A stretch of DNA of 31,856 nt from Pyrinomonadaceae bacterium (GCA_040003545.1 JBDUCF010000001.1:1-31856), one strand, 5' to 3'; positions 12,122 through 27,693 are shown, numbered from the stretch's first letter. Made by a program: numbers and translations. Notes: generated by a model not told the origin, from the letters alone.

Positions 12122-12150
12122 AGTATAGCGGAAAGCCCTTGAAAAGCGAA
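12122..12150 (-). promoter_or_regulatory. Candidate promoter upstream of the rne leader
   Basis: Minus strand has a good -10 (TATACT, 12122-12127) and a weak -35 (TTCGCT) at 17-nt spacing, just after the kinase stop codon. Confidence 0.3.
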
Positions 12151-12156
12151 GTCATA

Positions 12157-14589
12157 TCAGCGGGAAATCCTGCTAATCAGCGCTTTGAACCGCGAATCGT
12201 CACGAAGTGAGGCCAGATTGGGATCGTGCTCGAAGCAGGGACGGTTTTCGTTTCCCAGAGACACGGAGCGCTCCAGCCACTCGAATGCCTGGTCGGATTC
12301 TTTCTCAAGCGCGTACACCGAGCCAAGGGAATACGCAATGTCCGCATCGACGGCGGCGTTTCGTTTGACCGCGTCGGTAAGTTCGGCGCGCGCGGCTTCA
12401 TGTTGTCCCAGCGTACTCAGACACATTGCCAGAAAGGGGCGTACGCCGTGCATGTTGGGATGCCGATCCACGACTTGGCGCAGCAGGGTAGTAGCGTTTT
12501 CAGTCTCACCGAGGTAGTAAAGCGTCAGGGCGCGAAAAGTCTTGAGCAGGGGATTGTTTGGCTCGATCGCGGTGGCCTGATCCAGCTCGCGCATAGCCTC
12601 CTGTGGCTGGCCCTTGAAAATCAGGATCAGCGCCCGGTTGTAGCTGACAACGACATGCGCAGCCGGATCCAGACGCACGAGGCGGTCGTAACTGCGCAAA
12701 GCGCGTTCGTATTCGCCGTCGAGACGATGCAAGGTGGCTTTCACGAAGTGCACTACTGCTTCGTTTGGCGCTTCGCGACGCATGCGCGTCACCTCCTCGC
12801 GGGCCTTTTGTTTCTCTCCCCGCCAAAGGTAAACGAAAACCATTAACATGCGGGCTTCGATTAGATCGGGATCGAGCGCCAGAGCCTTGTTGAAAGCGGC
12901 TTCGGCTCGCTCGTAATCCTCCGCCCCACCCAAACCTTTGTGTACCCGATTTACATAACTGGCGCCGAGGCCGTCGTAGGCGAGGGCAAACTCCGGATCG
13001 AGTTCTATGGCGCGTTTGAAATGATTTATTGCCGCGTCACAGTCTTCCGAGGCTACGGTGCGGAAAATGAATCGCGCGAACAAATCGCGGCCGCGGAGAT
13101 ATTCTTCGTAGGCAGCGGCGTTCACCGTTGTTGGCTGGGCCAGGCCGGCTTGTTCGTCGGGACTCAGCTCCAGCCGCAATCCATCAACAATGCGCTGGGC
13201 GATTGTGTCCTGTACGGCGATGATGTCCGCCGCCGCTGCGTCTATGCGGTCGCTCCACAAGATGTCGCCGGTCGCTACGTCGAGCAGTTGTGCGGTCACC
13301 CGAAACCGTTCGCCGACATGAAAGAACCCGGTAGCCAGAACGGCAGTGACGTTTAGCTCGCGCCCTACGTCGCGCGGATCAACCGGCTGGCCCTGATACT
13401 TCGCGATGACGGACGAAGGCCGCACAACCAGCGAACGAATGCGGGCCAACTCGGTGATCACCGCGTCTGCCAGGGAAAACTCGTAGAAGCTTGATGCGGG
13501 GTCATTGTTCAGGTTTTTGAAAGGCAGGATGGCAATACTCTTTTTTTCGCGATCGGCAACAGTGGTGAACGGCGTCTCATGAAGAGTGGTTGGAGTACGC
13601 TGCGACGTGCCCGGAGTGCTGGTCTGTGATGGCGCCGTCGTTTTCGTCCGCAGCCACCGCATTGCCCGCGACACCGGATTAGCGCCGGCGATATGCCGGG
13701 GAGGGGCCGGCATTCCAGTCTCAACGACTTCACCAGGCGTCGATATTTCGCGCAGCACGCCTCGCAGATCATCCTGCAACTCAACGATCTTCTGGTAACG
13801 ATCGCGCGGCTCCTTAGCCATCGCCCGATCCAGGATCTGCTGCAGTCGGGGCGGTATGGGTTCTTTGCGTGTTTCGCTAACAGGCTTTGCGGCGTCGTGA
13901 ATCACTGCATGACGGACGTCGACGCTGGATTTGCCGCGAAAGGGCCATGTGCCCGTCAGCATCTCGTAAAGCAGCACGCCGGTGGAAAAAATGTCAGCCC
14001 GCGCATCGACGCGATCGCCGCGGGCCTGTTCGGGCGCGGCGTAGGTGGCGGTGCCATAGGGCACACCGACCTCAGTTAGCTCGGTCTGATGAATTTGCTT
14101 GGAGGCGGCCTCGTTCTCGTCTAATAACTTTGCCAATCCGAAGTCCAGAATCTTTACCTGGCCGGAGTCGGTGACCATCACGTTGCCGGATTTTATATCG
14201 CGGTGAATGATGCCGCGCGCGTGTGCCGCTGCCAGCGCATCGGTAACCTGCGTAGCAATTAAGAGAGCGCTGCGCAGCTCCAGTGGCCGGCCGCCCACCA
14301 GCTGGCGGACGTTGCGTCCTTCGACGTATTGCATGGTGATGAAGTGCAGGCCATTGGCCTCGTCCAGGTCGAAGATGGTGCAAATATTAGGATGGTCCAG
14401 CGTGGAAGCGAGGCGGGCTTCGCGTTCAAAGCGCTTGAGGTTGGTTTCTTTTACCGTCAGCTCGGCAGGCAGAACTTTGACCACAACGGTGCGGCCCAGC
14501 TTGTTGTCGGTGGCTTTATAAACCGCGCCTTGTCCGCCGGCACCGATCTTCTGCGTGATTTTGTAATTGCCGAGAGTTTGCCCGACCAT
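12157..14589 (-). CDS. Cytoplasmic Hanks-type Ser/Thr protein kinase with TolB-N/FlgO-like and TPR domains
   Basis: GAGGQGAVY, VVVK, HRDIKSGN, DFG, GTATYAAPEQ, DIFSTG; then SIAILPFKNL...LADAVITEL and TPR-like repeats. No transmembrane helix is evident. Confidence 0.93.
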   Translation of the reverse strand: MVGQTLGNYKITQKIGAGGQGAVYKATDNKLGRTVVVKVLPAELTVKETNLKRFEREARLASTLDHPNICTIFDLDEANGLHFITMQYVEGRNVRQLVGGRPLELRSALLIATQVTDALAAAHARGIIHRDIKSGNVMVTDSGQVKILDFGLAKLLDENEAASKQIHQTELTEVGVPYGTATYAAPEQARGDRVDARADIFSTGVLLYEMLTGTWPFRGKSSVDVRHAVIHDAAKPVSETRKEPIPPRLQQILDRAMAKEPRDRYQKIVELQDDLRGVLREISTPGEVVETGMPAPPRHIAGANPVSRAMRWLRTKTTAPSQTSTPGTSQRTPTTLHETPFTTVADREKKSIAILPFKNLNNDPASSFYEFSLADAVITELARIRSLVVRPSSVIAKYQGQPVDPRDVGRELNVTAVLATGFFHVGERFRVTAQLLDVATGDILWSDRIDAAAADIIAVQDTIAQRIVDGLRLELSPDEQAGLAQPTTVNAAAYEEYLRGRDLFARFIFRTVASEDCDAAINHFKRAIELDPEFALAYDGLGASYVNRVHKGLGGAEDYERAEAAFNKALALDPDLIEARMLMVFVYLWRGEKQKAREEVTRMRREAPNEAVVHFVKATLHRLDGEYERALRSYDRLVRLDPAAHVVVSYNRALILIFKGQPQEAMRELDQATAIEPNNPLLKTFRALTLYYLGETENATTLLRQVVDRHPNMHGVRPFLAMCLSTLGQHEAARAELTDAVKRNAAVDADIAYSLGSVYALEKESDQAFEWLERSVSLGNENRPCFEHDPNLASLRDDSRFKALISRISR

Positions 14590-15169: not shown

Positions 15170-16291
15170 TCAATTCACGAATCGCCGCAGTTGCACGCTG
15201 ATGGCAAAGCCAATAGCAATAAATGTGGAGAGGACTGAAGACAGTCCCGCACTCATCAGAGGAAGCGGCACGCCTATGACCGGCAACAACCCCAGCGCCA
15301 TGCCAACGTTGATGAAAATCTGAAAGATAAGTCCGCCTACTATGGCCATGATCACCAGCATCCCGGTCCGGTCCCGGGAGCGGCGGGCGTCGGAAACCAG
15401 GCGCAAAAGCAGTATCGCGTAGGCCGCCAGCAGCAGCAGGCCGCCAACGAACCCCGTCGTCTCTGCGGTGACGGCGAAGATGAAATCGGTGTGCGGCTCC
15501 GGCAGAAATTTCAGACGGCTCTGCGAATAATCCGACGAGGCGCGCGTGCCTGTTAGTCCACCTTCGCCTACCGTGATGATCGATTGCCAGGTGTGATAAC
15601 CAAAGCCGCGCTTATCTGCATTTTCCGGATCCAGGATGACATTGATGCGCTCAAGTTTATAGCCGTGCAGGATTCCGGTCCTTACACCAATCATGTAGCT
15701 TGCCGGCGCCGCAACTACGGCAAATACCAGGGCTGCAATTACCAACCACATGCGCACCGAAGAGAGGAAGATTACGATTGCCAGCAGCGGCAAATAGGTC
15801 AGGCACTGGCCCACATCCGGCTCAAGCATTATGAGTCCGATGGGTAAACCAAGAATGCCGAGGCCGACGATCACTTCCCACCAGGAAAGGGCGCCCTGAC
15901 GATGCTTGCCGAAATACTTTGCCAGCATCAGGACCACCGGAATCTTTACGAACTCGGAGGGCTGAAACTGGCCCAGCCCCGGCAGCTTGATCCAGCAACG
16001 CTGGCCGTTGACTCTCATTCCTATTCCGGGAACAAGTACGACCACCAGCAACAGCAATCCAAAGACATAGAACGCAGGTGCAAATTCCACTAACCGCCGG
16101 TAGTCAGTGAAGGCAATTGCCAGCATCGCCACCAGAGCTATGCCGAGACCGATCAACTGCTTTTGCCAGAAGGCTTCGGTTGGCTGTGCGTTATGGATTT
16201 CCCATGCGCCAAAGCAGACGATGATCGTAGCCAGCAGAGCCAGCATCCAATCGAAGTCTCTTAAGCTGTGTCGTTCCAGGATAGCGACCAT
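15170..16291 (-). CDS. rodA: Rod shape-determining SEDS glycosyltransferase RodA
   Basis: Multi-TM protein with FQPSEFVK, EPDVG, FLPEPHTDFIF, GVPLPLMSAG; directly downstream of mrdA. Confidence 0.95.
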   Translation of the reverse strand: MVAILERHSLRDFDWMLALLATIIVCFGAWEIHNAQPTEAFWQKQLIGLGIALVAMLAIAFTDYRRLVEFAPAFYVFGLLLLVVVLVPGIGMRVNGQRCWIKLPGLGQFQPSEFVKIPVVLMLAKYFGKHRQGALSWWEVIVGLGILGLPIGLIMLEPDVGQCLTYLPLLAIVIFLSSVRMWLVIAALVFAVVAAPASYMIGVRTGILHGYKLERINVILDPENADKRGFGYHTWQSIITVGEGGLTGTRASSDYSQSRLKFLPEPHTDFIFAVTAETTGFVGGLLLLAAYAILLLRLVSDARRSRDRTGMLVIMAIVGGLIFQIFINVGMALGLLPVIGVPLPLMSAGLSSVLSTFIAIGFAISVQLRRFVN

Positions 16292-16363
16292 GGCATTGTG
16301 AATCGAGAACGGTAAACCGTTAATGGCCTCTAATTTAGTTCAGAGCTCAATCTTCATTCGAAC

Positions 16364-18268
16364 TCATCTAATTCTCATCGCGATTTGATTCGGCGGCGGA
16401 GCTTCGGGCCGCGTCTTCTTGTAGTAAACGTCGTAAACAGCACGCACCGAGGGAGCGCCGAAACGGGAACCGAGCCCGGCGTTCTCGATCAATGCGACGC
16501 AGGAGATCTCCGGCTTGAAGGCGGGTGCGTACGAGACAAACCACGAATGGTCCTTGTTCGCTCCCACGTCCTTGCCGAGGCTAACTACCTGTGCCGTTCC
16601 TGTCTTGCCCGCAATTTCGAAGCCGGCCATCTTTATGCCTGCCGCGGTGCCTGCCTCATTGACCACTGACCACATGCCTTTGACGACGAGATCGTTCTGG
16701 TCTTTAGGTATGGAAAGGATTTTTGGCTCAGGATGCTCGAACGCTCTGGCCGGCCGGGCGGGGCGGTAATCGGGAGTACCCGGTTCTCCAACCGCGGCGA
16801 TCGCTCGGATCTCTTTCATGACATGCGGCACATACATCTTGCCGCCCATACCTATGGCTGAGTGGGCCCGCAACAACGCAATCGGAGTCAGCACGTCTTC
16901 ACCCTGGCCGAAAGAAGAGTAGACCGTATCGATGTCTTTCCATTCCGGATCGGTGGGATAGAGTTTTGCCTTCAACTCGCGTGATGGAGTCATGCTGATG
17001 ATTTCATGTGGCAGATCGATGCCGGTGCGTTTGTTGAGATCGAACTCCTCCACCATCTCCTGGATGCCTTCGAGTTTCATCTTTAGGCCGAGACGATAGA
17101 AGTAACCGTCGCAGGATTTCATGATCGCGAAATGCACGTCGGGGGTGCCATGGTTGCCACCCATGCAGCGGGTGAACTTGTTGCCGATCGTGATGCCGCC
17201 GCCGCAGACCAGGTTTGAATGGTCGATTGTGATCGCGCCCTGCTGTAGCCCGGCTGTGGCCATCAAAGGCTTCCAGGTTGAGCCGGGCGGGTAGCGACCC
17301 TGGATGGCGCGATTGAGAAGCGGCTTTTTCGGATCAGCGAGCAATTTGGCATACTCGGCGCGTCCCTCTTTGCTGCCGATCCGTTGCGAAAAGAGATTGG
17401 GATCGAAGGTGGGATATGAGGCCATGGTCAGGACCTCGCCATTGTTTGGATCCATGGCGATAATCACACCGCGGCCCTGCGGTGACACCCGTAACTGATC
17501 CTCGGCCGTCTCTTGCAAATCGATGTCGATGGTGGTGACCATGTCCTGGCCAGGTTGCGGCTCTATTCTCTCGACTTCTCTTTGAATATGACCACCGCTA
17601 TCCACGATAACCTTGCGATAGCCGTCCTTGCCGCGAAGGTAGTCGTCGTACGCCTTTTCCAAACCGTCCTGGCCGATTACGTCGCCAGGTTTGTAGCCTT
17701 TATTCTTATTTTGCGGCAGCTCCAGTTGTTCCGGACTGACTTCGCCAACGTAGCCGAGCACGTGGGCCAGCATCCCGTTGTCAGGATAACGGCGCTGCGG
17801 CTGCTGCTCGATCCGCAGTTCAGGAAACTCAAGCTGGTGAGCATCTACCCACGCGATATCGTCCAGCGTGGCGCCCTCTTTGATCGTAATGGATTCGAAT
17901 GCCGGTTGAGATTTAATCTGATCAAATCGCTCGCGTAGGATGTCTCCATCAATGACGAGCGCTTCCGATAGCGGCTTGATCAGCTGATTCAGATCTTTTC
18001 CCTTGGTGTCTTCGCGCGAGAGAATGACGCTATAGATAGGACGTGAATCGACTAACTGGCGGCCATTACGATCTAAAATTGCTCCTCTGGGCGCCGGAAT
18101 CGGCAGCAGTCGCACGCGCTGATTTTCAGCGATTTCCGCGTAATGGCGGCCGTTAATAATCTGCAGGACATAGAGCCTGACCGCCAGCACGGCAAGCAGT
18201 AACAGCACAACGGCCTGGACCATTCGTAGCCGCATGCGCACGTTTTGTGAGTAGTCCTCAAATTTCAT
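16364..18268 (-). CDS. mrdA: Penicillin-binding protein 2 (class B transpeptidase)
   Basis: N-terminal TM, APRGAILDRNG, YPPGSTWK (SxxK), SCD, KTGTAQ, DHSWF. Confidence 0.95.
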   Translation of the reverse strand: MKFEDYSQNVRMRLRMVQAVVLLLLAVLAVRLYVLQIINGRHYAEIAENQRVRLLPIPAPRGAILDRNGRQLVDSRPIYSVILSREDTKGKDLNQLIKPLSEALVIDGDILRERFDQIKSQPAFESITIKEGATLDDIAWVDAHQLEFPELRIEQQPQRRYPDNGMLAHVLGYVGEVSPEQLELPQNKNKGYKPGDVIGQDGLEKAYDDYLRGKDGYRKVIVDSGGHIQREVERIEPQPGQDMVTTIDIDLQETAEDQLRVSPQGRGVIIAMDPNNGEVLTMASYPTFDPNLFSQRIGSKEGRAEYAKLLADPKKPLLNRAIQGRYPPGSTWKPLMATAGLQQGAITIDHSNLVCGGGITIGNKFTRCMGGNHGTPDVHFAIMKSCDGYFYRLGLKMKLEGIQEMVEEFDLNKRTGIDLPHEIISMTPSRELKAKLYPTDPEWKDIDTVYSSFGQGEDVLTPIALLRAHSAIGMGGKMYVPHVMKEIRAIAAVGEPGTPDYRPARPARAFEHPEPKILSIPKDQNDLVVKGMWSVVNEAGTAAGIKMAGFEIAGKTGTAQVVSLGKDVGANKDHSWFVSYAPAFKPEISCVALIENAGLGSRFGAPSVRAVYDVYYKKTRPEAPPPNQIAMRIR

Positions 18269-18287
18269 AAAAGCGATTACCCAAATA

Positions 18288-18322
18288 TCAGTTGTTAGTG
18301 GTCAGTTGTTGGTTGCTCTTGG
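18288..18322. repeat. Degenerate 7-nt tandem repeat in the mreD-mrdA spacer
   Basis: TCAGTTG TTAGTGG TCAGTTG TTGGTTG CTCTTGG. Confidence 0.6.
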
Positions 18323-18366
18323 TAAAGAACCTTACTTTTCCGCGACGGTAGTGTTCCCGCGACCGT

Positions 18367-18909
18367 TCATCTTCTCTTTAACAAACTCGGCCCCCGACGA
18401 GCTACGCGGCGTCTGCCGGCGAAGTGGCGTCGTTGCTGAGCGCGTTCACTAAAGAATGCTTCGAACACGTAAAGCAATACCGTGCCTACCACAGTCGTAG
18501 CAACCAACTCGTACAAAAGTGCCTGCACAAAAGGCACAGCCAGCGACTGGCCCAACAGCCGATGCATGCCGACAAACACCGACGCATCAATCAGAGTAGC
18601 AGCCGCCAGCACCGGAATGCGCAGCAGCGTGGTATCGAGCATTACCCGGGCCGCCGCCAGATAAACAATATACGCCGTGAGGGTTTTGGAAAACCCTCCA
18701 GCGCCCAACAATCCGCCGCCCAAAGCGTCTGTTGCCAGCCCGGCTGCGGCGCCGATCACCAGAGCCTGCAAGACGTCGCGCTGCAACGCAAAATAGATTA
18801 CGAGGATAAGGGGCAGGTCTACGTAAGCAAGGGGGGGCCAGACGGCGCGCAACGACGATTGCAAAGCAATTGCGAGGGCCAACACCGCTGCTATTTTCAG
18901 TTGATGCAT
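18367..18909 (-). CDS. mreD: Rod shape-determining protein MreD
   Basis: Hydrophobic multi-TM protein (VDLPLILVIYFAL...GLATDALGGGLLG) between mreC and mrdA. The ATG at 18909 is preferred; the upstream extension is repeat-derived. Confidence 0.88.
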   Translation of the reverse strand: MHQLKIAAVLALAIALQSSLRAVWPPLAYVDLPLILVIYFALQRDVLQALVIGAAAGLATDALGGGLLGAGGFSKTLTAYIVYLAAARVMLDTTLLRIPVLAAATLIDASVFVGMHRLLGQSLAVPFVQALLYELVATTVVGTVLLYVFEAFFSERAQQRRHFAGRRRVARRGPSLLKRR

Positions 18910-18930
18910 ATCAACTACAGTAAGCAGGGG

Positions 18931-18978
18931 GGAGTGCGCAGTGAACAAATGGCAGTGGGCAGTTGGCAAATGGCCGCA
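18931..18978. repeat. Degenerate 7-nt tandem repeat in the mreC-mreD spacer
   Basis: GGAGTGC GCAGTGA ACAAATG GCAGTGG GCAGTTG GCAAATG GCCGCAA. Confidence 0.65.
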
Positions 18979-19038
18979 AACACAAGCCTCCGACAATCTC
19001 GTTCATATCTTCCTGTCAGCGAGATGTATCGCTGCTGC

Positions 19039-19932
19039 TCACTGTTTTTTCGCGTTCGGCAATGCCTGATCGGATGCGACACGCTCCGGTGGCCGGTACT
19101 GAAGCACAGCGACTTCCTTGAGTCGATCCAAACTGGCGCCGGGCCGGATATGAATCACCTGCGCCAGCGTGGCTGACCCAGGTTTTACTTCCACTACTTC
19201 GCCTACGTTGTAGCCGGCAGGGAAAACACCATCCTGACCAGTCGTCGTGACGTAATCACCGGCGGTAACTTTCTCTAAACCAGAAACGTAGCGCATCTCC
19301 AGCAAGCCGCTTTCGCCGAGGCCCTTGATTGAGCCCAATGCGCTTGATTGCCCAAGCTGACCGACGATAGCTCCGAGCCCGGACTTTTCATTCGTAATCA
19401 GCATCACCTGGGCGCTCCACACGCTGGTGGAAACGACTCGGCCGACGATGCCGCTCGAATTAACCACCGGCATATTGTTCTCGACGCCGGCGGATCTGCC
19501 GCGATCGATGGTGATGGTGTCGAACCAGAGGGAAGGATCGCGCGCGATCACGGTTGCCACAATAGTTCCGTAGCTGCTCTTCTCTCTCAGCCCCAGCAGA
19601 CTTCGCAGCCGCTCGTTTTCCATGGCCTGGGTACGCGAGTCCCGCACTTCTGTCTCCAGCAGGGCCAGTCGGTTCTTCAATTGCTCGTTTTCGCTGGCGG
19701 CGCTGCGCAAGCTGCCAATGCGCTGGAAGAAGCCGACACCGGCGCCACCTGCCCCGGAGGTTGCGCGCTGTACGGGATAAGCAATCGCCTGGGCCCACAC
19801 GCGAATCATTCTCTGCTTGGTTGAATCTTCACGCGCGTCATAAGACATCAAAGCGAAATTGGCAAACAACAGTCCCGCCAGCCACCATGGGGCCCGTTGG
19901 CGAATCTCTTTTTGAGTGCGAATCGTGGCCAT
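19039..19932 (-). CDS. mreC: Rod shape-determining protein MreC
   Basis: TM plus coiled coil (ENEQLKNRL...ENERLRSLL), ITIDRGRSAGV, GIVGRV, TTGQDGVFPAG. Start set at the ATG at 19932. Confidence 0.93.
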   Translation of the reverse strand: MATIRTQKEIRQRAPWWLAGLLFANFALMSYDAREDSTKQRMIRVWAQAIAYPVQRATSGAGGAGVGFFQRIGSLRSAASENEQLKNRLALLETEVRDSRTQAMENERLRSLLGLREKSSYGTIVATVIARDPSLWFDTITIDRGRSAGVENNMPVVNSSGIVGRVVSTSVWSAQVMLITNEKSGLGAIVGQLGQSSALGSIKGLGESGLLEMRYVSGLEKVTAGDYVTTTGQDGVFPAGYNVGEVVEVKPGSATLAQVIHIRPGASLDRLKEVAVLQYRPPERVASDQALPNAKKQ

Positions 19933-20030
19933 TACATGCCCATTGCCGATTCCCGCTTGCCAAAGTTTTAAGAGACTTTTCCGGGGATATTGCTGAACCG
20001 ATCGTGTGCAGTCGAAAATCGGCGATATTA

Positions 20031-21077
20031 CTAGGTTCCGCTGGTCAGGCTGTTGTCCCACTTGACCCGCTTCAGCAGGTTGAAGTCGGAAAGCATTTTG
20101 CCTGTTCCCAGCACTACCGACGCCAGGGGATCGTCTGCGAGCGATACAGGCAAGCCCGTTTCGATCGAGAGGCGACGATCCAGGTTCTTCAAGAGCGCGC
20201 CGCCACCCGTCAATACAATGCCGCGCTCGACAATGTCAGCCGAGAGCTCCGGTGGCGTGCGCTCCAGCGCAATGCGCACCGCGTTGATTATCGTCGAGAC
20301 CGAATCCGCAAGCGCTTCGCGCACCTCTTCGTCGGTCATGGTAATTGTTTTCGGTATACCTTCAATGAGGTTACGACCGCGAACTTCGAACGACAGCGGT
20401 TCATCCAACGGAAACGCCGAGCCAAGCTCTATCTTGATCGCCTCCGCGGTACGTTCACCGATCAACAGGTTGTACTTACGTTTGATGTATTGAGTGATCG
20501 CTTCATCCATTTCGTTTCCGGCAACGCGCACGGAACGAGAATAGACGATACCGCTCAAGCTGATAACAGCGATGTCGGTGGTGCCCCCGCCGATGTCTAC
20601 CACCATGTTGCCGTGCGGCTCAGTGATGGGAAGTCCGGCGCCGATAGCCGCGGCCATCGCTTCCTCCACGAGATAAACTTCCGAAGCTTTGGCGCGATAG
20701 GCTGAGTCCTCAACAGCGCGACGCTCGACCTGAGTTATTTCAGAAGGAATTCCGATGACGACGCGCGGGCTTACCCACGTCTTGCCGTTGTGTGCTTTGC
20801 GTATAAAGTGCTGGAGCATCTTTTCGGTCACTTCAAAGTTGGCGATAACGCCGTCTTTCATGGGCCGAATAGCAACAATGTTACCGGGCGTGCGCCCCAG
20901 CATTTCCTTGGCGTCGCGGCCCACGGCCTCTACGGCGTTGGTAACCTTGTTGATTGCTACGATCGAAGGTTCAGAGACGACGATGCCGCGGCCCTTGGCG
21001 TATACCAATGTGTTGGCGGTGCCGAGGTCGATCGCGAGATCGCTGGAGAAGAGACTGAAAATGGATTTGAAAGGCAT
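20031..21077 (-). CDS. mreB: Rod shape-determining actin homolog MreB
   Basis: [42 protein letters not shown]. Confidence 0.98.
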
Positions 21078-21262
21078 CAGGATTTTCCCGCACTAAGTAG
21101 AATGAGGCGCCCGAAGAGGAGCGGTTACTGCACGCCTATTGACCGAGGTCTGAGGCGATCTTTTGCAGCGAAGCACTTCAGCGGGACCGCCGCTTTGGTG
21201 TTGCCAACTCACGCGAGCAAGCGCCAACTAACTAAGATACACTGATTGTTTGTGGGGCGCTA

Positions 21263-22858
21263 TCAGGAAATTGACTTTTTGTCTTCAATGCGAAGAATTT
21301 GTGGCGGAATGTCCGACGCGTCTTTGCGAGCAGTACGCGGAACCTCAGTACTGAAGCGAACGCAGTTCTTGTTCGCGGCTTTCGCTTCATACATCGCTGA
21401 ATCGGCGGAAGCGATTAATTGTTGTGGTGAAGAAGCGTGTTGAGGGAATATCGCCACCCCGAAGCTGGCTGTCAGCAGAAGCCGAAGTCGCCGGCCTCCA
21501 GTGAAGGCGTGGCGGGCAATCGTTTCTCGAATCCTCTCCGCAACCAGCGCCGCCTGGTCCAGTCCCGTCTCCGGCAGAATGACGACAAACTCGTCGCCAC
21601 CGTAGCGGGCCACAGAATCGGTGTCGCGCACGGAGGAGAGAATTACAGCGGCCATTTCCATCAGCACGTGCGACCCGACCAGGTGCCCGTGCCCATCGTT
21701 GATATGCTTGAAATCATCCAAATCGAAAAACAACGCCGCCACACTCGAGCCATACCTTCTGGCACGCCTGATCTCGTTCAGGAGATACTGACGCAAATAT
21801 CGGGCATTGTGCAGCTTCGTGAGATCGTCGGTTTGCGATAACCGCTCAGCCTCAGCGATGCGCGCGGAGTTCGCCAGCGCCGACCCGATCGGAACAGCCA
21901 ATCCCTCAAGTAACATTGCTTCGGACTTCTTGAAAGAGCGCGCTCCCTTATCTTCCCGGATCGCTTCGAGCACGCCGATAACTCTTTCACCGCTAATCAA
22001 AGGAAGCGCCACTACACGCCGGCCGGCTTCAGTTTTTCTGATAGTCGCCAATTGCGTGGCCGCTTCTTTTGCACTCTTCGATTCTGATCCGGGAGGAAGG
22101 ATCAAGTCATTCAGTACAGCCTGCCTCCAGTCATCGTCGGAAATCGTGGGCCGGTTCCCGGTCTGATCTCGCACTGCAAGAGGCTCGATGGTCACTGAAT
22201 CGGCGGTGCTTGATTCGGAAAGCAAATAGATGACCCACCGATCAGCCTTTACAAGATTCGATAGTCCCAGGAGGACTGCGTATGCCGCAGACCGCTGGTC
22301 ATTCGCAAAATGGAGCAGCGACACCAACTCGAATGCTGCGCGCAAATGCGCCGATGTCAGGGACGCCGGCAGAGAAAAAGAAATGGCCTCGGGAAGGTTG
22401 ACGGACTGAGGCAGTCGCAGTTCGCCGGTGGTGCCGCGCTCTTCAATTTGTCGCAGCAGGGCGGGCAATTGCGCCGCCTTGTCCGCGATAGCGCGAAAGC
22501 CGAGCCGTTGTAGAGCTGAGCCGTCAAAGACGCGAAGGTGCAGAGCGCTCCCGCCCCGAACAGGATGGCGGCAAGCAATTGCGGGGACACCTGGCCAGGT
22601 CGAGGTCGCGTGCTCAATTGCAGCATGGAGATCTGTTACGTCGGCGCCGGGGAAAACCTCGTAAAGAACGGCCAATGGCTGAGGAGTGGCAGGATCGCTG
22701 TCAGCTTCACGCTGAGGCTGCCGTGTGATGGCGGCTTCGAGTTCCGCTTCACGCAGTCCTTCGACCAGCACGGACACGCCGGCATCCTGCAGGACCTCAA
22801 TGAGTTCCAGCGCGGGCGCTTCATGCGCGTCGGTCAGCAGGATTACATGTCCAGTCAT
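21263..22858 (-). CDS. Soluble diguanylate cyclase: degenerate receiver-like N-terminus, GAF, GGDEF
   Basis: TDDLTKLHNARY, FFDLDDFKHINDGHGHLVG, RxxD I-site (RDTD) and intact GGDEF (21587-21601); GAF-like LPLISGERVIGVLEA. Confidence 0.9.
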   Translation of the reverse strand: MTGHVILLTDAHEAPALELIEVLQDAGVSVLVEGLREAELEAAITRQPQREADSDPATPQPLAVLYEVFPGADVTDLHAAIEHATSTWPGVPAIACRHPVRGGSALHLRVFDGSALQRLGFRAIADKAAQLPALLRQIEERGTTGELRLPQSVNLPEAISFSLPASLTSAHLRAAFELVSLLHFANDQRSAAYAVLLGLSNLVKADRWVIYLLSESSTADSVTIEPLAVRDQTGNRPTISDDDWRQAVLNDLILPPGSESKSAKEAATQLATIRKTEAGRRVVALPLISGERVIGVLEAIREDKGARSFKKSEAMLLEGLAVPIGSALANSARIAEAERLSQTDDLTKLHNARYLRQYLLNEIRRARRYGSSVAALFFDLDDFKHINDGHGHLVGSHVLMEMAAVILSSVRDTDSVARYGGDEFVVILPETGLDQAALVAERIRETIARHAFTGGRRLRLLLTASFGVAIFPQHASSPQQLIASADSAMYEAKAANKNCVRFSTEVPRTARKDASDIPPQILRIEDKKSIS

Positions 22859-22872
22859 GGAAATCGCTCGGC

Positions 22873-24120
22873 TTAACCCCTTCGTCCGGCTGCGGGTGCG
22901 ATCGCCAGGCGATATTGGCTGCTGTTGCCCTGCGGGTCTTGCGCTTCGACAGTCAGGCTGCGGGCCCCGGACGGCGCGGTAATCTGGAGCTGGAACGATC
23001 CGTCGCTGGTAGCGACGGTTTCACGTCCAGCAACGCGTAAGGTTGTTCCAGGCTGGGACGAGCCACGCACGAGATAGATGTCGCCACCAATGTATTCCGA
23101 AGAGAGGTTCGAGACGGAAACCGGTGAACCAGTACCGCGGGGCGCGACGATAAACTTTAGCGGCTCGCTCCAATCGCTGGCCTGGCCCGACGGCGCAGTA
23201 GCGCGAATGCGCCAGAAGTAAACGCCGGGCCGCAGGTCGCTGGCGGCGAACTCTGTCGCCGCAAGCTGATCGCGTTCAATCACGCGGCCCTCGGGAACGA
23301 AGAAGGGAGAGGTGGCAACCTCGACCCGGTAGTACGCTGCGGTACCCGATTGGGGTCGCTGCCAACGCAGCGCGATTGTTGCCGTGCCGCCGGCGGACGC
23401 CATCACTTTTTCCAGGTCGCGAGGTTCGGTAGGGTTGGGCACGTCGAGCAGGCGTTGGGGTTTTGAAATTGTGCCTGCGGTATTCACGAAAACGTATTCG
23501 CCGGCTTTCAAATCAGTGCGCTCACCGCTGCGGTTAGTGCTCTGTACTGCGCCTTGATTAACGCGAATCTCTTCGCCTTCTGAGCTGACGCCAAAACTGG
23601 CGTTTGTTTGATCGCCAATCTTATTTTTTGTTTTGGGGGTCTCAACAACATTATTGCCGCCGTCTGGTTGCTGCTCAGTGCGAACATACATCTGGCCGCT
23701 ATCGACGACGACATGCACGTTGGTAGGCTTGCCGTCTTCGGCGCCGCTATTGTCGCGGACAATGATCGTGCTATTGGGCCGCACCACCACGGTCGAGCCG
23801 TCGGCCATGCCGATGCGCGCGCGCCCGTCAGCCTGCGTCTGCACCGTGTCGCCGGGGAAGAGTTGGGTGTTGCTGGTAGCGGAAATCACTTCGCGCGTGG
23901 TGGCACGCAGGACGCGGACATCCCCTTCGAAAGAGATAAACCGGGCCCCGGTCAGATTCGCTACGGCGCCGACTTTTTTGAGCGGATTGCCGTATTTCCA
24001 CACGTATACGGCAGCGCCCGCCGCCACGACACAAAGTGCGAGCACTAAGATCATGACGTAGACGAACCGCTTCTGAATCACCCACCAATCAAGGGGGTAG
24101 CGAGGGGATCTGGTAACCAT
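22873..24120 (-). CDS. Single-pass membrane protein with FecR-like, fibronectin-III-like and Ig-like periplasmic domains
   Basis: TM near the N-terminus, then LFPGDTVQTQADGRARIGMADGSTVVVRPNS (FecR-like), LRWQ...YYRVEVA...LRPGVYFWRIRA (Fn3-like) and a C-terminal beta-sandwich. Confidence 0.75.
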   Translation of the reverse strand: MVTRSPRYPLDWWVIQKRFVYVMILVLALCVVAAGAAVYVWKYGNPLKKVGAVANLTGARFISFEGDVRVLRATTREVISATSNTQLFPGDTVQTQADGRARIGMADGSTVVVRPNSTIIVRDNSGAEDGKPTNVHVVVDSGQMYVRTEQQPDGGNNVVETPKTKNKIGDQTNASFGVSSEGEEIRVNQGAVQSTNRSGERTDLKAGEYVFVNTAGTISKPQRLLDVPNPTEPRDLEKVMASAGGTATIALRWQRPQSGTAAYYRVEVATSPFFVPEGRVIERDQLAATEFAASDLRPGVYFWRIRATAPSGQASDWSEPLKFIVAPRGTGSPVSVSNLSSEYIGGDIYLVRGSSQPGTTLRVAGRETVATSDGSFQLQITAPSGARSLTVEAQDPQGNSSQYRLAIAPAAGRRG

Positions 24121-24391
24121 TTGGTGGAAATTACTTTACGAGACGACTGAGTGACTTAAAGAGTCTTCGAGTCTTTCAAAAGGTGAGTCTTACCAGGCAA
24201 GGGCGACTACTGCCACAAAGAATCTAACACAGCGGAGAACGATGGTTCAAGAATAAGCTGTTCTTTCTTTAACGGTCGTTGGAAAAGGGGCTAAATTAGC
24301 GGAACGGGAAGCAAACAACGGGGTTTGAGACCCCTCCGTGGCCAGCAACTCGCGCGAACCAATGCTTCATCTCAACAGAGTGGCAGTCCCC

Positions 24392-24457
24392 GATTTCGGA
24401 AATCCAACGTCCTTGCGGTTTCAGTAAGGGATCTTAAAGGAGCAATAGTCTGAAACC
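24392..24457. repeat. Two inverted repeats in the divergent intergenic region
   Basis: GATTTC-G-GAAATC (24392-24404) and GGTTTCAG-25 nt-CTGAAACC (24417-24457). Confidence 0.5.
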
Positions 24458-24504
24458 TGGCCGCGGGTTCAGCGTGTACTCTGTGGGCCTCAGCTTGGCT
24501 GGCG

Positions 24505-24532
24505 GCTGACGAGCAAATACGCATGTTATACT
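24505..24532 (+). promoter_or_regulatory. Candidate extended -10 promoter of the secretion/pilus operon
   Basis: TG-T-TATACT at 24524-24532, with a CTGAC-containing -35-like element upstream, about 115 nt before the ATG at 24646. Confidence 0.45.
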
Positions 24533-24645
24533 CGACGTTCTATTTCGCTGTTGTTTCCCTGGATCAATGAAATAAGTAACCGGTGCTTGTACGCTTTGCG
24601 ACCATTCGAAGGCGAAAGTCAGGGAGCCTGCAAGCGCGTTGATTT

Positions 24646-25881
24646 ATGGCTGAGTTTATCTGTCGATTAGGAACTCCCGCGGGCGAGGTGATCACGCGCA
24701 CGGTGGAGGCGGTGGGTATTACCGAAGCGCGGGCCCGACTGGAGCGCGAAGGCTTCAGGGTCTTCAATGTTGCGCCGCCTAAAGCTATCGGTGTTGCCGC
24801 TTTCACGCGCATGGGACGCGCTGGCGGGCAAGCCCGCGTCAAAGCCAACGACTTCCTCTTATTCAATCAACAACTCGCGGCCCTTATTCGCGCTGGTATT
24901 CCGATACTGCAGGCGATTTCGATGCTGAGTAAGCGAGCGACTTCGCCGCGAGTCCGCGCAGTGCTGGGCGATGTCGAAGACGCAATTCGCGGCGGCTCCG
25001 CGCTATCGGCGGCATTTGCGGCGCAGGGCTCGATCTTTCCGCGCATCTATACCGCTTCGATACTGGCGGGTGAGCGCTCGGGCGCGCTCGACGAAGTACT
25101 GACGCGCTACGTTACGTACATGCGTCGCAACGTCGGACTGCGTCGGCGGATTCGCGGGGCACTGGCCTACCCCACGTTTCTCCTGCTGGCCTCCGCGGCC
25201 ATGGTGACGTTCCTGACAGTTTACGTGGTGCCGCGCATGTCGGACTTGTTTACCGGGTTTGGTAATGACCTGCCGACCGTAACAAAGCTGGTAGTGGGGC
25301 TCTCGGGTTGGCTTTCTTCGAATGTGTTTTGGTTTGCGCCGCTTGTAATCATCACCGTCGTCGCGACTTTCTTTTGGTCACGCACACCGCCCGGAAGGCT
25401 GGCGGTCGATCGCTGGATGCTGAAGGTACCCCTGGCGGGAAAACTTCTGGTGCAACTGTCGGTGGCCCAGGCGGCGCGTTCGCTCGCGACTTTGCTGGCT
25501 GGTGGCATCACTCTGGTCGAGTCCTGGGAGATTGCGGCCGAGTCAGTAACAAACCTTGAGTTGCGCCGGCGCAGTTCAGCCATCCTGCCGATGATTCGTG
25601 AAGGCCAGTCCTTTACAGAAAGTCTGGAGTCGGCCGGGTGGGTGCCCGACCTGGCAGTTGATATGATAGGCATTGGCGAACGGTCCGGCAGCTTGCGGGA
25701 GATGCTGGATGAAGTGGCGATCTTTTATGACGCGGAAGCAGAGGTAAAGCTGGAGCAGTTGACGACCACGCTGGAGCCTGCGATCCTAGTCGTGATGGGA
25801 GGAGTCGTAATTACTGTGTTACTTGCGATATACCTCCCCATCATTCAGTCGATTTCCGGAGGGCCCATGATGGGACGCTAG
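24646..25881 (+). CDS. Type II secretion system F / PilC-family inner-membrane platform protein
   Basis: FNQQLAALIRAGIPILQAI, AGERSGALDEVL, ALAYP, IGERSGSLREML, LEPAIL...AIYLPI. Confidence 0.95.
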   Translation: MAEFICRLGTPAGEVITRTVEAVGITEARARLEREGFRVFNVAPPKAIGVAAFTRMGRAGGQARVKANDFLLFNQQLAALIRAGIPILQAISMLSKRATSPRVRAVLGDVEDAIRGGSALSAAFAAQGSIFPRIYTASILAGERSGALDEVLTRYVTYMRRNVGLRRRIRGALAYPTFLLLASAAMVTFLTVYVVPRMSDLFTGFGNDLPTVTKLVVGLSGWLSSNVFWFAPLVIITVVATFFWSRTPPGRLAVDRWMLKVPLAGKLLVQLSVAQAARSLATLLAGGITLVESWEIAAESVTNLELRRRSSAILPMIREGQSFTESLESAGWVPDLAVDMIGIGERSGSLREMLDEVAIFYDAEAEVKLEQLTTTLEPAILVVMGGVVITVLLAIYLPIIQSISGGPMMGR

Positions 25882-25974: not shown

Positions 25975-27693
25975 ATGAAGCAACTGACTGAAGAACCAGA
26001 ATCGATTTCCGCGCCGAACGATGTAGTGGCGAATCTCCCTGGCGAAGATGCTTTTTCGTTCCCGGAGAATAATGAGCCACCCGAAGTGACTGCGGCGAAG
26101 AAGTTGGCCCAACGCTATCGCCTGCCGTACGTTGATTTGCTACCTGTTAACGGAGACTCGCCGATCGACTATTCCTTGCTGGGTGAGTTACCCATCGACT
26201 TGATGTTGCGTCATCAGTTCGTGCCGCTACGGCGTGACGGCAAACGGCTACACATCGCGATGGCGGATCCGACGGACCTGGAAAAGCTGGATGAGTTGGC
26301 GCATGCATTGCGCGCGCGTCTGGTAGCGCATATCGCCACTGCGGGCGCTATTGACGTGGTGCTGCACAAAGGAGACGCAACCCAGCGAGTGTTGCAGGAA
26401 GCAACGTCCGGGTTTCGCATCTCTCTGGTACGCGAAACGGAGCAGGGCGAAGAAGTGCTCGACCTGGATCGGCTGGCGGCAGCAGACTCCGAGATGTCCC
26501 CGATCATCAAGCTGGTCGATACGATTATTTTCAACGCGATGGAGTCGCGCGCATCAGACATCCACATCGAGACCCGCGACACAGAAGTGCAGGTCAAATT
26601 CCGCATTGACGGCGCGCTGTATGCGAAAGTTGATCCCATTGACCTGGCTTATCACCAAAGACTTATTTCGCGCATCAAGGTGATGTCCGAACTCGACATT
26701 GCTGAGCGGCGCGTGCCGCAGGACGGGCGTTTTCGCGTGCGCTACAAAGGACGCAACGTTGATTTCCGCGTTTCGATAATGCCCACCGTTCACGGCGAAG
26801 ATGCGGTCATTCGTATTCTTGACAAGGAACAGATCAATGAGGCTTTCAAGGAGTTGCGCCTCGACGTAGTCGGGTTCAACGATGAAGACCTGCGAAAGTT
26901 TCGGCGCTACATCGCCGAACCGTACGGCATGGTCCTGGTAACCGGGCCTACCGGTTCCGGCAAAACCACTACTTTATATGCAGCGCTGAATGAGATTCGG
27001 AACGAAGAAGATAAGATTCTCACAATCGAAGATCCGGTCGAGTATCAGTTGCACGGCATCACGCAGATTCCGGTGAACGAGAAAAAGGGATTGACGTTCG
27101 CGCGCGGCCTGCGCTCCATCCTGCGTCACGATCCAGACAAGATAATGGTCGGCGAAATCCGCGATACCGAAACAGCGCAGATTGCCATTCAATCGGCGCT
27201 GACAGGCCATCTGGTTTTCACAACGGTCCACGCCAACAATGTGATCGACGTGATTGGCCGGTTCTTGAATATGGGGGTTGAACCTTACAACTTCGTTTCA
27301 AGTTTGAACTGCGTATTGGCCCAGCGGTTGATTCGGATGCTTTGTCCCGTTTGTAAGCGAGCTTATCGTCCTACCGACACGGAAGTGCTGGAATCGGGCC
27401 TGCGTCCGGAGGAACAGAAGGGGCGCGTCTTTTACATGCATGTGGGTTGCGATGCCTGCAATCACACCGGCTATCGTGGGCGTACCGCGATTCACGAACT
27501 GTTGGACCTCAGCGACAACATCCGCGAGATGATCGTGGAGCGCCGGCCCGGTTCAGAAGTTCGCCGCGCAGCGGCTGCAGAGGGCCTTACCAGCCTGCGC
27601 GAGTCGGCCCTGAAAAAAGTCTTCAGCGGCGTCTCGACTCTGCACGAAATCAATCGCGTAACATTTGTTGAGGAACTTAGCTTAACGAGGTAA
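25975..27693 (+). CDS. GspE/PulE/PilB-family assembly ATPase
   Basis: ASDIHIE, LDIAERRVPQDGRF, Walker A GPTGSGKTT, TIEDPVEY, LRHDPDKIMVGEIRD, His box TTVHAN, and CPVC/CDAC zinc motif. Confidence 0.96.
   Translation: MKQLTEEPESISAPNDVVANLPGEDAFSFPENNEPPEVTAAKKLAQRYRLPYVDLLPVNGDSPIDYSLLGELPIDLMLRHQFVPLRRDGKRLHIAMADPTDLEKLDELAHALRARLVAHIATAGAIDVVLHKGDATQRVLQEATSGFRISLVRETEQGEEVLDLDRLAAADSEMSPIIKLVDTIIFNAMESRASDIHIETRDTEVQVKFRIDGALYAKVDPIDLAYHQRLISRIKVMSELDIAERRVPQDGRFRVRYKGRNVDFRVSIMPTVHGEDAVIRILDKEQINEAFKELRLDVVGFNDEDLRKFRRYIAEPYGMVLVTGPTGSGKTTTLYAALNEIRNEEDKILTIEDPVEYQLHGITQIPVNEKKGLTFARGLRSILRHDPDKIMVGEIRDTETAQIAIQSALTGHLVFTTVHANNVIDVIGRFLNMGVEPYNFVSSLNCVLAQRLIRMLCPVCKRAYRPTDTEVLESGLRPEEQKGRVFYMHVGCDACNHTGYRGRTAIHELLDLSDNIREMIVERRPGSEVRRAAAAEGLTSLRESALKKVFSGVSTLHEINRVTFVEELSLTR

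What the first reader, a model, noticed from the sequence alone, without database searches (positions are those of the whole stretch)
21263..24120. FecR-Fn3-Ig membrane protein paired with a diguanylate cyclase instead of an ECF sigma: candidate envelope-sensing c-di-GMP relay between the pilus-like and elongasome operons
Seen: the FecR-like gene ends 14 nt before the GGDEF gene. The pair is co-oriented with mreBCD-mrdA-rodA (185-nt gap) and divergent from the secretion/pilus cluster. The FecR-like protein has only about 18 residues before its TM helix, and no ECF sigma or TonB-dependent receptor is in the window. The cyclase has intact GGDEF and RxxD I-site motifs and no TM helix. Established: canonical FecR relays signals from a TonB receptor to an ECF sigma through a longer cytoplasmic domain, and pilus-linked surface sensing raises c-di-GMP in other bacteria (PilY1/SadC in Pseudomonas). 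Inference: the periplasmic FecR/Fn3/Ig module may contact the secretin or envelope and signal to the soluble cyclase, linking pilus state, cell shape and c-di-GMP.
Basis: partly seen in the sequence, partly recalled or inferred. Interest (0 to 1): 0.72.

Follow-up and report, generated by a model that had tools for sequence, protein, structure and literature searches.

The report
Elongasome-linked FecR protein and cGAMP-type cyclase
A membrane protein with a FecR-like outer part and a signalling-nucleotide cyclase form the leading genes of the rod-shape (mreB) gene block throughout the soil phylum Acidobacteriota. The cyclase carries the hallmarks of enzymes that make cGAMP rather than only c-di-GMP, which points to an undescribed link between that messenger and cell-wall elongation, not to the neighbouring pilus genes.

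Summary
In detail: both genes, both gaps (14 nt and 185 nt), the short tail and the GGDEF and RxxD motifs are as described. The reading needs three changes.

1. The conserved partner is the elongasome, not the pilus cluster. The order FecR-domain gene, then an optional cyclase, then mreBCD-mrdA-rodA recurs in Pyrinomonadaceae, other Blastocatellia and 39 of 40 loci from 40 further acidobacterial families. The secretion cluster is adjacent only in this genus.

2. The enzyme is not a canonical diguanylate cyclase. It has a receiver-like domain, a GAF domain and a Hypr-type GGDEF domain: Ser396 at the guanine-selectivity site, Ala352 instead of the cross-dimer Arg, and GGDEF (never GGEEF). Its best match among solved structures is Geobacter GacA. 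I predict that it makes 3',3'-cGAMP, possibly with c-di-GMP.

3. Each gene occurs next to mreB without the other, so an obligate sensor-to-cyclase relay is unlikely.

The membrane protein is not an anti-sigma factor. Its roughly 16-residue tail carries a motif (D/E-W-aromatic-x-V/I-S/T) conserved across the phylum.

This scan noted the same block earlier on other DNA (e1-1171510 and others). I verified the Hypr lead independently. Function is inferred; there is no RNA or biochemical evidence.

The parts
22873..24120 (-). Gene for the FecR-Ig bitopic membrane protein (415 aa): short cytoplasmic tail, one TM helix, periplasmic FecR domain, FN3 and Ig-like domains.
24067..24108 (-). Cytoplasmic juxtamembrane motif SPRYPLDWWVIQKR (residues 5-18). 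W12 is invariant in 49 orthologs across the phylum. Consensus: (L/I)(D/E)W(F/Y/W)x(V/I)(S/T)(Y)(R/K).
23998..24066 (-). Transmembrane signal-anchor helix (residues 19-41).
23485..23946 (-). Periplasmic FecR-type beta domain (residues 59-212). It resembles the FecR part of PupR and BDI_1681.
23143..23436 (-). FN3-like beta-sandwich (residues 229-326).
22903..23115 (-). C-terminal Ig-like beta-sandwich (residues 336-406).
22859..22872 (-). 14-nt spacer between the two genes. In relatives this spacer ranges from -25 to +134 nt.
21263..22858 (-). Gene for the soluble cyclase (531 aa) with receiver-like, GAF and Hypr-GGDEF domains.
22436..22858 (-). Receiver-like (beta-alpha)5 domain (residues 1-141). 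It has no Pfam match, and Glu67 sits where the acceptor Asp is expected.
21869..22354 (-). GAF domain (about residues 169-330).
21365..21835 (-). GGDEF catalytic domain (residues 342-498).
21803..21805 (-). Ala352 codon. This is the cross-dimer position, Arg in canonical cyclases and Tyr304 in GacA.
21671..21673 (-). Ser396 codon. This is the base-selectivity position, Asp344 in PleD and Ser348 in GacA.
21587..21628 (-). RDTD I-site (residues 411-414) and GGDEF motif (residues 420-424).
21078..21262 (-). 185-nt spacer before mreB. Its 5' end (about 21218-21262) holds a block, TAGC-N17-19-TATCTTAG, conserved in 8 genera. The block is promoter-like by spacing; its function is not shown.
15170..21077 (-). 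mreB (20031-21077), mreC (19039-20061), mreD (18367-18996), PBP2 gene mrdA (16364-18268) and rodA (15170-16291). This is the conserved downstream partner of both genes.

Best explanation
The two genes are the leading members of an extended elongasome gene block: FecR-domain membrane protein, then cyclase, then mreB-mreC-mreD-mrdA-rodA. The block is conserved across Acidobacteriota.

Gene 1 encodes an N-in, C-out single-pass protein. Its periplasmic FecR, FN3 and Ig stalk faces the cell wall or the periplasmic parts of the elongasome. Its 16-residue cytoplasmic tail carries a conserved docking-type motif. It is not an anti-sigma factor.

Gene 2 encodes a soluble enzyme with receiver-like, GAF and GGDEF domains and the Hypr signature. 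I predict that it makes 3',3'-cGAMP, possibly together with c-di-GMP. I also predict that c-di-GMP inhibits it at the retained RxxD I-site, as shown for GacB of Myxococcus.

Working model (inferred): both proteins act with or on the rod-elongation machinery. The membrane protein reports on, or scaffolds, the periplasmic side. The cyclase turns a cytoplasmic ligand sensed by its GAF domain into a cyclic-dinucleotide signal, and it is expressed together with the elongasome. Direct activation of the cyclase by the membrane protein is possible but not required. The adjacent secretion/pilus cluster is unrelated.

Shown: gene order, domain make-up, motif conservation and the active-site signature. 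Inferred: the product, the partners and the physiological role.
For: Gene order:
- FecR-Ig, cyclase, mreBCD, PBP2, rodA in Pyrinomonadaceae and in three other families of Blastocatellia.
- In 80 further family loci, 59 of the 70 with enough flank have both the cyclase and mreB, and 11 have mreB directly.
- In 40 loci from 40 other families of the phylum, FecR-Ig lies directly upstream of mreB, or of cyclase plus mreB, in 39. This counts L058 and L067, which are placed only from the profile coordinates.
- Gaps are operon-like: FecR-Ig to cyclase -25 to +67 nt in 13 of 14 of these loci (220 nt in L061); cyclase to mreB -10 to +172; FecR-Ig to mreB -1 to +303.

Tail motif:
- W12 is invariant in 49 orthologs that share only about 20-30% identity.

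FecR fold:
- Foldseek matches to BDI_1681 (4m0n, rmsd 2.8 A over 135 columns) and to the PupR C-terminal domain (6ovk).
- FecR-FN3-like modules are fused to OmpA/MotB or peptidoglycan-binding domains in other bacteria.

Hypr signature:
- The best PDB sequence match is 6d9m, Geobacter GacA, at E 1e-44; PleD scores 2e-33.
- Ser396 is invariant, position 352 is Ala/Ser/Ile and never Arg, and the motif is GGDEF in all 13 aligned Blastocatellia orthologs.
- Among the 29 mreB-linked enzymes of the two locus sets, 25 have Ser, 2 have Gly and 2 could not be read; none has Arg at the cross-dimer site.
- All 61 further Pyrinomonadaceae enzymes with a readable site have Ser at that position.
- Six of the seven other GGDEF domains of this genome have Asp there.
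- The meaning of these positions comes from PMC6456294. GAF regulation and I-site cross-inhibition of a Hypr enzyme come from 10.1101/600031.
Against: - No transcript, protein or product data exist for any member.
- In this family the 185-nt spacer before mreB carries a conserved promoter-like block. The pair and mreBCD may therefore be separate transcription units here.
- Some Ser-type enzymes still make mainly c-di-GMP. In PMC6456294 the ones that did so had Arg at the cross-dimer site, which this enzyme lacks.
- The riboswitches found in relatives are G20-type (c-di-GMP-like), not the A20 cGAMP type.
- A subgroup of Pyrinomonadaceae keeps a 37-44% identical FecR-Ig gene next to TerC and away from mreB.
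- The tree of GGDEF domains is poorly resolved at its base. A single origin for the mreB-linked enzymes is compatible with it but not proven.
- My second-batch loci were chosen blind to mreB. Part of the first batch was chosen after I had already seen the adjacency.
Confidence: 0.6

Rival explanations
1. Obligate envelope-to-cyclase relay. The periplasmic FecR/FN3/Ig module senses an envelope cue. The short tail then activates the soluble cyclase, for instance through its receiver-like domain. The two proteins form one signalling unit.
For: - The spacer is tight or overlapping: 14 nt here and -25 to +67 nt in most other loci with both genes.
- Every cyclase in my sample that carries the receiver-like domain co-occurs with FecR-Ig.
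- In Myxococcus xanthus the cGAMP phosphodiesterase gene pmxA shares a locus with a FecR lipoprotein gene and a LysM-FN3 gene (PMC8844925).
Against: - FecR-Ig with an intact tail motif stands directly before mreB without any cyclase in 22 of 40 families, in G009 and in G047.
- A short Hypr cyclase stands before mreB without FecR-Ig in family f6.
- The tail motif does not differ between genomes with and without the cyclase.
Confidence: 0.2
2. The FecR module contacts the secretin or pilus machinery next door and raises c-di-GMP, coupling pilus state to cell shape.
For: - The genes are divergently adjacent to a T2SS/T4P-like cluster.
- The secretin of that cluster has a sub-threshold STN match. 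In canonical systems the STN domain is the type of domain that FecR partners bind (own knowledge).
Against: - The adjacency occurs only in this genus: L021, and 4 of 80 family loci.
- Elsewhere the upstream neighbour is TerC or an unrelated gene.
- The enzyme is not a canonical c-di-GMP synthase.
Confidence: 0.03
3. The enzyme is functionally an ordinary diguanylate cyclase, and the Ser substitution does not change the product in vivo. The block links c-di-GMP, not cGAMP, to elongation.
For: - Hypr enzymes are promiscuous in vitro, and some natural Ser-type enzymes make more c-di-GMP (PMC6456294).
- Relatives carry G20-type c-di-GMP-I riboswitches. G009, which lacks the cyclase, has none.
Against: - The full signature is present: Ser at the selectivity site, a non-Arg cross-dimer residue and GGDEF. 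It is conserved across the phylum and only in this paralog.
- The closest solved relative is GacA.
Confidence: 0.2
4. FecR-Ig is a RodZ-like membrane anchor or adaptor that binds MreB through its conserved tail. The cyclase is a later insertion with a separate role.
For: - The tail motif is conserved across the phylum irrespective of the cyclase.
- The gene is always immediately upstream of mreB.
- The protein has the same N-in, single-pass topology as RodZ.
Against: - RodZ_C-containing genes co-occur with FecR-Ig in most families of the class, so FecR-Ig is not a simple replacement.
- The tail is only about 16 residues long, whereas RodZ binds MreB through a helix-turn-helix domain (own knowledge).
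Confidence: 0.15

Closest known systems
GacB (MXAN_2643) of Myxococcus xanthus, a GAF-Hypr GGDEF GMP-AMP cyclase (10.1101/600031)
   Same: - A GAF domain stands in front of a GGDEF domain with Ser at the selectivity site.
- The RxxD I-site is retained. In GacB it binds c-di-GMP as a cross-inhibitor, and cAMP activates the enzyme through the GAF domain.
   Different: - This enzyme has an extra N-terminal receiver-like domain.
- It is encoded between a FecR-domain gene and mreB.
- The GAF ligand and the product are untested.
GacA (GSU1658 / Gmet_1914) of Geobacter, the founding Hypr GGDEF (PDB 6d9m/5VS9; PMC6456294)
   Same: - It is the best PDB sequence match, at E 1e-44 (46% identity by Foldseek).
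- It shares the GHLVGS selectivity motif, GGDEF and a non-Arg cross-dimer residue.
   Different: - GacA has a true receiver domain and Tyr at the cross-dimer site. This enzyme has Ala there, a degenerate receiver and a GAF domain.
- GacA controls extracellular metal respiration through riboswitches and is not linked to mreB.
FecR/PupR-type anti-sigma factors of cell-surface signalling (PDB 6ovk; BDI_1681, 4m0n)
   Same: - Single-pass, N-in topology.
- A periplasmic FecR beta domain with matching fold.
   Different: - No cytoplasmic anti-sigma domain; the tail is 16 residues.
- No STN-like C-terminal subdomain; FN3 and Ig domains stand in its place.
- No ECF sigma factor or TonB-dependent receptor gene was seen in the window or in the loci I annotated.
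pmxA locus of Myxococcus xanthus (MXAN_2063 FecR lipoprotein, MXAN_2062 LysM-FN3 protein, PmxA cGAMP phosphodiesterase; PMC8844925)
   Same: Extracytoplasmic FecR-domain and FN3-domain proteins are encoded beside an enzyme of the Hypr-cGAMP pathway.
   Different: - There the enzyme is the phosphodiesterase, not the synthase.
- The FecR and FN3 parts are on two proteins.
- No link to mreB is reported, and the functions of the two proteins are unknown there as well.
RodZ, the bitopic MreB-binding elongasome protein
   Same: - N-in, single-pass protein with a beta-rich periplasmic part.
- Genetically tied to MreB.
   Different: - RodZ binds MreB through a cytoplasmic helix-turn-helix domain (own knowledge).
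- RodZ_C genes co-exist with FecR-Ig in many of these genomes.

Membership tests
FecR-type anti-sigma factor (cell-surface signalling) | Cytoplasmic N-terminal anti-sigma domain of roughly 80-90 residues that binds an ECF sigma factor | tested here: not met
   Only about 16-18 residues precede the TM helix, and the open frame extends just 5 codons upstream. The longer (about 480 aa) orthologs add a helical hairpin after the TM helix, not before it.
FecR-type anti-sigma factor (cell-surface signalling) | Periplasmic FecR domain (PF04773 fold) | tested here: met
   Pfam E 9e-7, 29.7 bits against a cut-off of 24. Foldseek matches 4m0n, 4m0h and 6ovk_R.
FecR-type anti-sigma factor (cell-surface signalling) | C-terminal STN-like subdomain that docks on a TonB-dependent transducer | tested here: not met
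   The C-terminal half consists of FN3 and Ig-like sandwiches. The structural match to the anti-sigma factors covers only 135-175 columns, which is the FecR part.
FecR-type anti-sigma factor (cell-surface signalling) | Gene neighbourhood with an ECF sigma factor and a TonB-dependent receptor | tested here: not met
   Pfam found neither among the window's large ORFs. In the related loci the downstream neighbour is mreB or the cyclase. Those loci were probed with the window's own genes, not with sigma-factor or receptor queries.
Hypr GGDEF (GMP-AMP cyclase) | Ser/Thr at the base-selectivity position (GacA Ser348, PleD Asp344) | tested here: met
   Ser396 lies in KHINDGHGHLVGS and aligns with the Ser of GHLVGS in 6d9m. 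The position is defined in PMC6456294.
Hypr GGDEF (GMP-AMP cyclase) | GGDEF with a central Asp, never GGEEF (the Goldilocks rule) | tested here: met
   GGDEF at residues 420-424. All syntenic enzymes whose motif was found have GGDE[F/Y]; in one (L083) the motif could not be read.
Hypr GGDEF (GMP-AMP cyclase) | The cross-dimer Arg of canonical cyclases is replaced (GacA Tyr304) | tested here: met
   Ala352 in LHN-A-RY. None of the 29 syntenic enzymes has Arg there. PMC6456294 states that enzymes with Tyr, Ser, Ala or Gln at this site make mainly cGAMP.
Hypr GGDEF (GMP-AMP cyclase) | Makes 3',3'-cGAMP from ATP plus GTP | not testable with these tools
   This needs an enzyme assay with LC-MS.
Canonical diguanylate cyclase | Asp at the guanine-selectivity position and Arg at the cross-dimer position | tested here: not met
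   The enzyme has Ser396 and Ala352. Six of the seven other GGDEF domains of the same genome have Asp at the selectivity position.
Response-regulator receiver domain | Sequence match to the Response_reg family and an acceptor Asp at the end of strand 3 | tested here: not met
   No Pfam match for residues 1-150 even at E 10. The AF2 model shows a (beta-alpha)5 fold, with Glu67 where the acceptor Asp is expected. It is a receiver-like pseudo-domain.
RodZ | Cytoplasmic helix-turn-helix domain and a RodZ_C periplasmic domain | tested here: not met
   Neither domain is present in P0001. Separate RodZ_C genes exist in most genomes of the class.

The most novel reading that the evidence does not exclude
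FecR-Ig is an unrecognised accessory subunit of the acidobacterial elongasome. Its conserved D/E-W-aromatic tail docks on MreB or another core component. The operon-embedded Hypr cyclase makes cGAMP as a signal that tunes rod elongation. This would be the first mechanistic link between cGAMP signalling and the cell-shape machinery.
Probability: 0.2. Interest if true: 0.85.

Novelty: new variant of a known kind. Interest (0 to 1): 0.62.

Why it matters
Acidobacteriota are among the most abundant soil bacteria, and almost nothing is known about how they grow and keep their shape.

A gene block places a FecR-domain envelope protein and a cGAMP-type cyclase directly in front of mreB. It is conserved across more than 40 families. 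This gives a concrete, testable entry point in three ways:
- It names two candidate elongasome accessory factors.
- It predicts a physiological role for Hypr-GGDEF signalling outside the Deltaproteobacteria-like groups where it was found.
- It shows that FecR domains work outside sigma-factor control.

My full-text searches found no paper on this link. The search for FecR, mreB and Acidobacteri returned nothing, and none of the papers listed for c-di-GMP, MreB and elongasome concerned such a link.

Tried and rejected
- Complex prediction of MreB with FecR-Ig residues 1-60, both given as 49-row alignments, returned 'no answer'. This is not evidence either way.
- Rfam scan of 20900-24800 at E up to 1: no hit, so no riboswitch lies in the spacers. 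The consensus fold of the mreB leader from 8 genera gave no structure.
- The promoter/terminator scan found no terminator-like site on the minus strand in either spacer and nothing above shuffled expectation.
- FecR-Ig as a RodZ replacement: weakened, because RodZ_C genes co-occur with it.
- I first mis-assigned the selectivity residue to Leu360, nine residues after the N of LxN. I corrected this by counting the PleD alignment. The relevant Asn is the N of KxxND, and the selectivity residue is Ser396.
- The search for related loci with the 49-row alignment failed because no block was conserved enough. With A1 it returned only Pyrinomonadaceae and Blastocatellia MAGs. Distribution outside Acidobacteriota was therefore not examined.
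- The tree of GGDEF domains clusters the syntenic enzymes (0 of 500 shuffles as low). It does not resolve a single clade: 60% of bootstrap trees, and the paralog branches are long.
- Pfam on residues 1-150 of the cyclase gave no match.
Full report
**Observation**

Two ORFs lie on the minus strand. The first, 22873-24120, encodes 415 aa. The second, 21263-22858, encodes 531 aa. They are 14 nt apart.

Downstream on the same strand, after 185 nt, come mreB, mreC, mreD, a PBP2 gene and rodA. A Ser/Thr kinase-TPR gene and an RNase E/G gene follow. Upstream and divergent lie a T2SS-F-like gene, a T2SS-E-like ATPase gene, a secretin gene and two pseudopilin genes. No ECF sigma factor or TonB-dependent receptor appears among the large ORFs of the window.

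**The membrane protein**

- Pfam finds a FecR domain at residues 91-192 (E 9e-7, above the cut-off) and sub-threshold Ig-like matches. Homologs carry precomputed fn3 matches.
- An AF2 model built on 21 orthologs has pLDDT 86. It shows a disordered tail, a TM helix at 17-43, a beta domain at about 59-212 and two beta-sandwiches at 229-326 and 336-406.
- Foldseek matches the beta domain to the anti-sigma proteins BDI_1681 (4m0n, rmsd 2.8 A over 135 columns) and PupR (6ovk). The match covers only the FecR part.
- The open frame extends just 5 codons beyond the ATG, so there is no room for an anti-sigma domain.
- By three of four defining features it is not a FecR-type anti-sigma factor. It lacks the cytoplasmic domain, the STN-like subdomain and the sigma/receptor neighbourhood.

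**The enzyme**

The GGDEF domain is unambiguous (E 3e-45), and a GAF domain precedes it. The AF2 model adds an N-terminal (beta-alpha)5 receiver-like domain at residues 1-141. That domain has no Pfam match even at E 10. Glu67 sits where the acceptor Asp would be.

I tested this claim here.

- The best match among all PDB sequences is 6d9m, the Geobacter GacA Hypr GGDEF (E 1e-44; 46% identity by Foldseek). PleD scores 2e-33.
- PMC6456294 defines the signature. It consists of Ser instead of Asp at the position that reads the Watson-Crick face of the base (GacA Ser348), GGDEF rather than GGEEF, and loss of the cross-dimer Arg (GacA Tyr304). The paper states that enzymes with Tyr, Ser, Ala or Gln at the cross-dimer site make mainly cGAMP.
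- The window's enzyme has Ser396 (GHLVGS, identical to GacA), GGDEF and Ala352.
- I first mis-assigned the selectivity position. I corrected it by counting the PleD alignment.
- Six of the seven other GGDEF domains of this genome have Asp at that site, so the signature is specific to this paralog.
- The RxxD I-site is kept. In the GAF-Hypr enzyme GacB this site binds c-di-GMP as a cross-inhibitor, and the GAF domain binds cAMP (10.1101/600031).

**Conservation in the family and class**

Names given by sources place the organism in Pyrinomonadaceae, class Blastocatellia.

- FecR-Ig is found in 35 of 36 genomes of the family that were searched, and in three other families of the class.
- The cyclase ortholog lies directly downstream in most of them.
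- In 20-kb loci the order FecR-Ig, cyclase, mreBCD, PBP2, rodA is seen in G001, G012, G018, G027, G031, G008 and G022. In G005 the pair is intact, but mreB lies 4.4 kb further on. The same order is seen in families f2, f4 and f9.
- G009 and G047 have FecR-Ig directly before mreB, with no cyclase.
- Six genera keep a 37-44% identical FecR-Ig gene between a TerC gene and a cation-efflux gene, away from mreB.
- In 80 further loci from public MAGs, 70 have enough flank. Of these, 59 have both the cyclase and mreB, and 11 have mreB directly. Only 4 have the T2SS-F gene upstream.

The pilus cluster is therefore a genus-level neighbour.

**Conservation in the phylum**

- A profile of FecR-Ig hits 130 of 251 Acidobacteriota genomes at E 1e-15 or better. 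mreB is present in 250.
- I fetched 40 loci from 40 further families. FecR-Ig lies directly upstream of mreB in 22. In 16 a GGDEF gene sits between them, counting L058 from the profile coordinates. In L067 only those coordinates place a partial FecR-Ig match next to mreB. In one locus there is no mreB within reach.
- Gaps are small. FecR-Ig to cyclase is -25 to +67 nt in 13 of 14 loci and 220 nt in L061. Cyclase to mreB is -10 to +172 nt. FecR-Ig to mreB is -1 to +303 nt.
- Part of the first batch was picked after I had seen adjacency in the coordinate lists. The second batch was picked blind.
- Among the 29 mreB-linked enzymes of the two locus sets, 25 have Ser at the selectivity site, 2 have Gly and 2 could not be read. 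None has Arg at the cross-dimer site. All whose motif was found have GGDE[F/Y], and the motif could not be read in L083.
- In family f6 a short Hypr enzyme stands before mreB with no FecR-Ig gene.

All four combinations therefore exist. Each gene's constant partner is mreB, not the other gene.

**The tail**

The roughly 16 cytoplasmic residues carry a motif with the consensus (L/I)(D/E)W(F/Y/W)x(V/I)(S/T)(Y)(R/K). It sits directly before the TM helix.

- W12 is invariant in 49 orthologs that otherwise share about 20-30% identity.
- The motif is the same with and without the cyclase.
- The longer orthologs (about 480 aa) add a helical hairpin on the periplasmic side, not a cytoplasmic domain.
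- Such conservation argues for a specific contact, but I could not identify the partner. The one complex prediction I could run, MreB with residues 1-60, gave no answer.

**Other context**

- FecR-FN3-like modules are fused to OmpA/MotB or peptidoglycan-binding domains in other bacteria.
- In M. xanthus the cGAMP phosphodiesterase gene pmxA shares a locus with a FecR lipoprotein gene and a LysM-FN3 gene (PMC8844925).
- Both points fit a cell-wall-facing role for the periplasmic module. They also suggest a recurrent association with Hypr-cGAMP genes. This is an inference.

**Transcription**

- No terminator-like site lies on the minus strand in either spacer, and there is no Rfam hit.
- The 5' end of the 185-nt spacer carries the block TAGC-N17-19-TATCTTAG. 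It is conserved in 8 genera, including G009, which lacks the cyclase. It has no consensus fold.
- In this family mreB may therefore have its own promoter. In other classes the cyclase abuts mreB.

**Against the cGAMP reading**

Relatives carry c-di-GMP-I and c-di-GMP-I-GGC riboswitches. The six aptamers whose alignments I read (five loci) keep G at the position that is A in cGAMP riboswitches (the G20/A20 rule is from my own knowledge). The product remains a prediction.

**Verdict**

- What is there is the leading pair of an extended elongasome gene block found across the phylum. One gene encodes a non-sigma FecR-domain membrane protein. The other encodes a cyclase with receiver-like, GAF and Hypr-GGDEF domains.
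- The scan noted the same block before on other DNA (e1-1171510, e1-4899826, e1-1174810, e1-3764168).
- My literature searches found no paper on it.
- Unpublished genomes G020, G035 and G082 enter only the tallies. No stated conclusion depends on them.

Noticed in passing
L022, L024, L025, L027, L028, L030-L035: A TerC membrane-protein gene lies just upstream of the FecR-Ig gene in many Pyrinomonadaceae. In six genera the order is TerC, FecR-Ig, cation-efflux (CDF) gene, with gaps of 20-30 nt and no mreB nearby.
   Followed up: partly
window 21218-21262 (minus strand): The block TAGC-N17-19-TATCTTAG lies at the start of the spacer before mreB. It is conserved in 8 genera, including one that lacks the cyclase. 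It is promoter-like by spacing, has no consensus RNA fold and has no Rfam match.
   Followed up: partly
L085-L090 (relatives G013, G007, G016, G037, G015, G004): c-di-GMP-I and c-di-GMP-I-GGC variant riboswitch aptamers occur in relatives, with a second aptamer about 400 nt away in two of the six loci (L086, L087). They are present in most Pyrinomonadaceae searched. None was found in G009, which lacks the cyclase, or in this window's genome, which is 74% complete.
   Followed up: partly
own genome, contig C364:1308-1811: A second GGDEF domain has Ser at the selectivity site but a GGEEF motif. PMC6456294 reports this combination as inactive.
   Followed up: no
L171-L173 (G045, G049, G057): In one Blastocatellia family a short (330-385 aa) Hypr-type GGDEF gene stands directly before mreB without any FecR-Ig gene. 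G057 also has two PBP2 genes in tandem.
   Followed up: partly
window 25975-26500: The secretion ATPase has a Pfam MshEN-family N-terminal domain (E 2e-18). Its sequence shows no RLGxx-type c-di-GMP-binding motif.
   Followed up: partly
window 8656-14589: An RNase E/G gene follows the mre block, as rng follows mreBCD in E. coli (own knowledge). In this genus a Ser/Thr kinase-TPR gene is inserted between rodA and the RNase gene.
   Followed up: no
window 6875-8632 and 978-1502: Two sizeable ORFs (585 aa and 174 aa) have no Pfam match.
   Followed up: no
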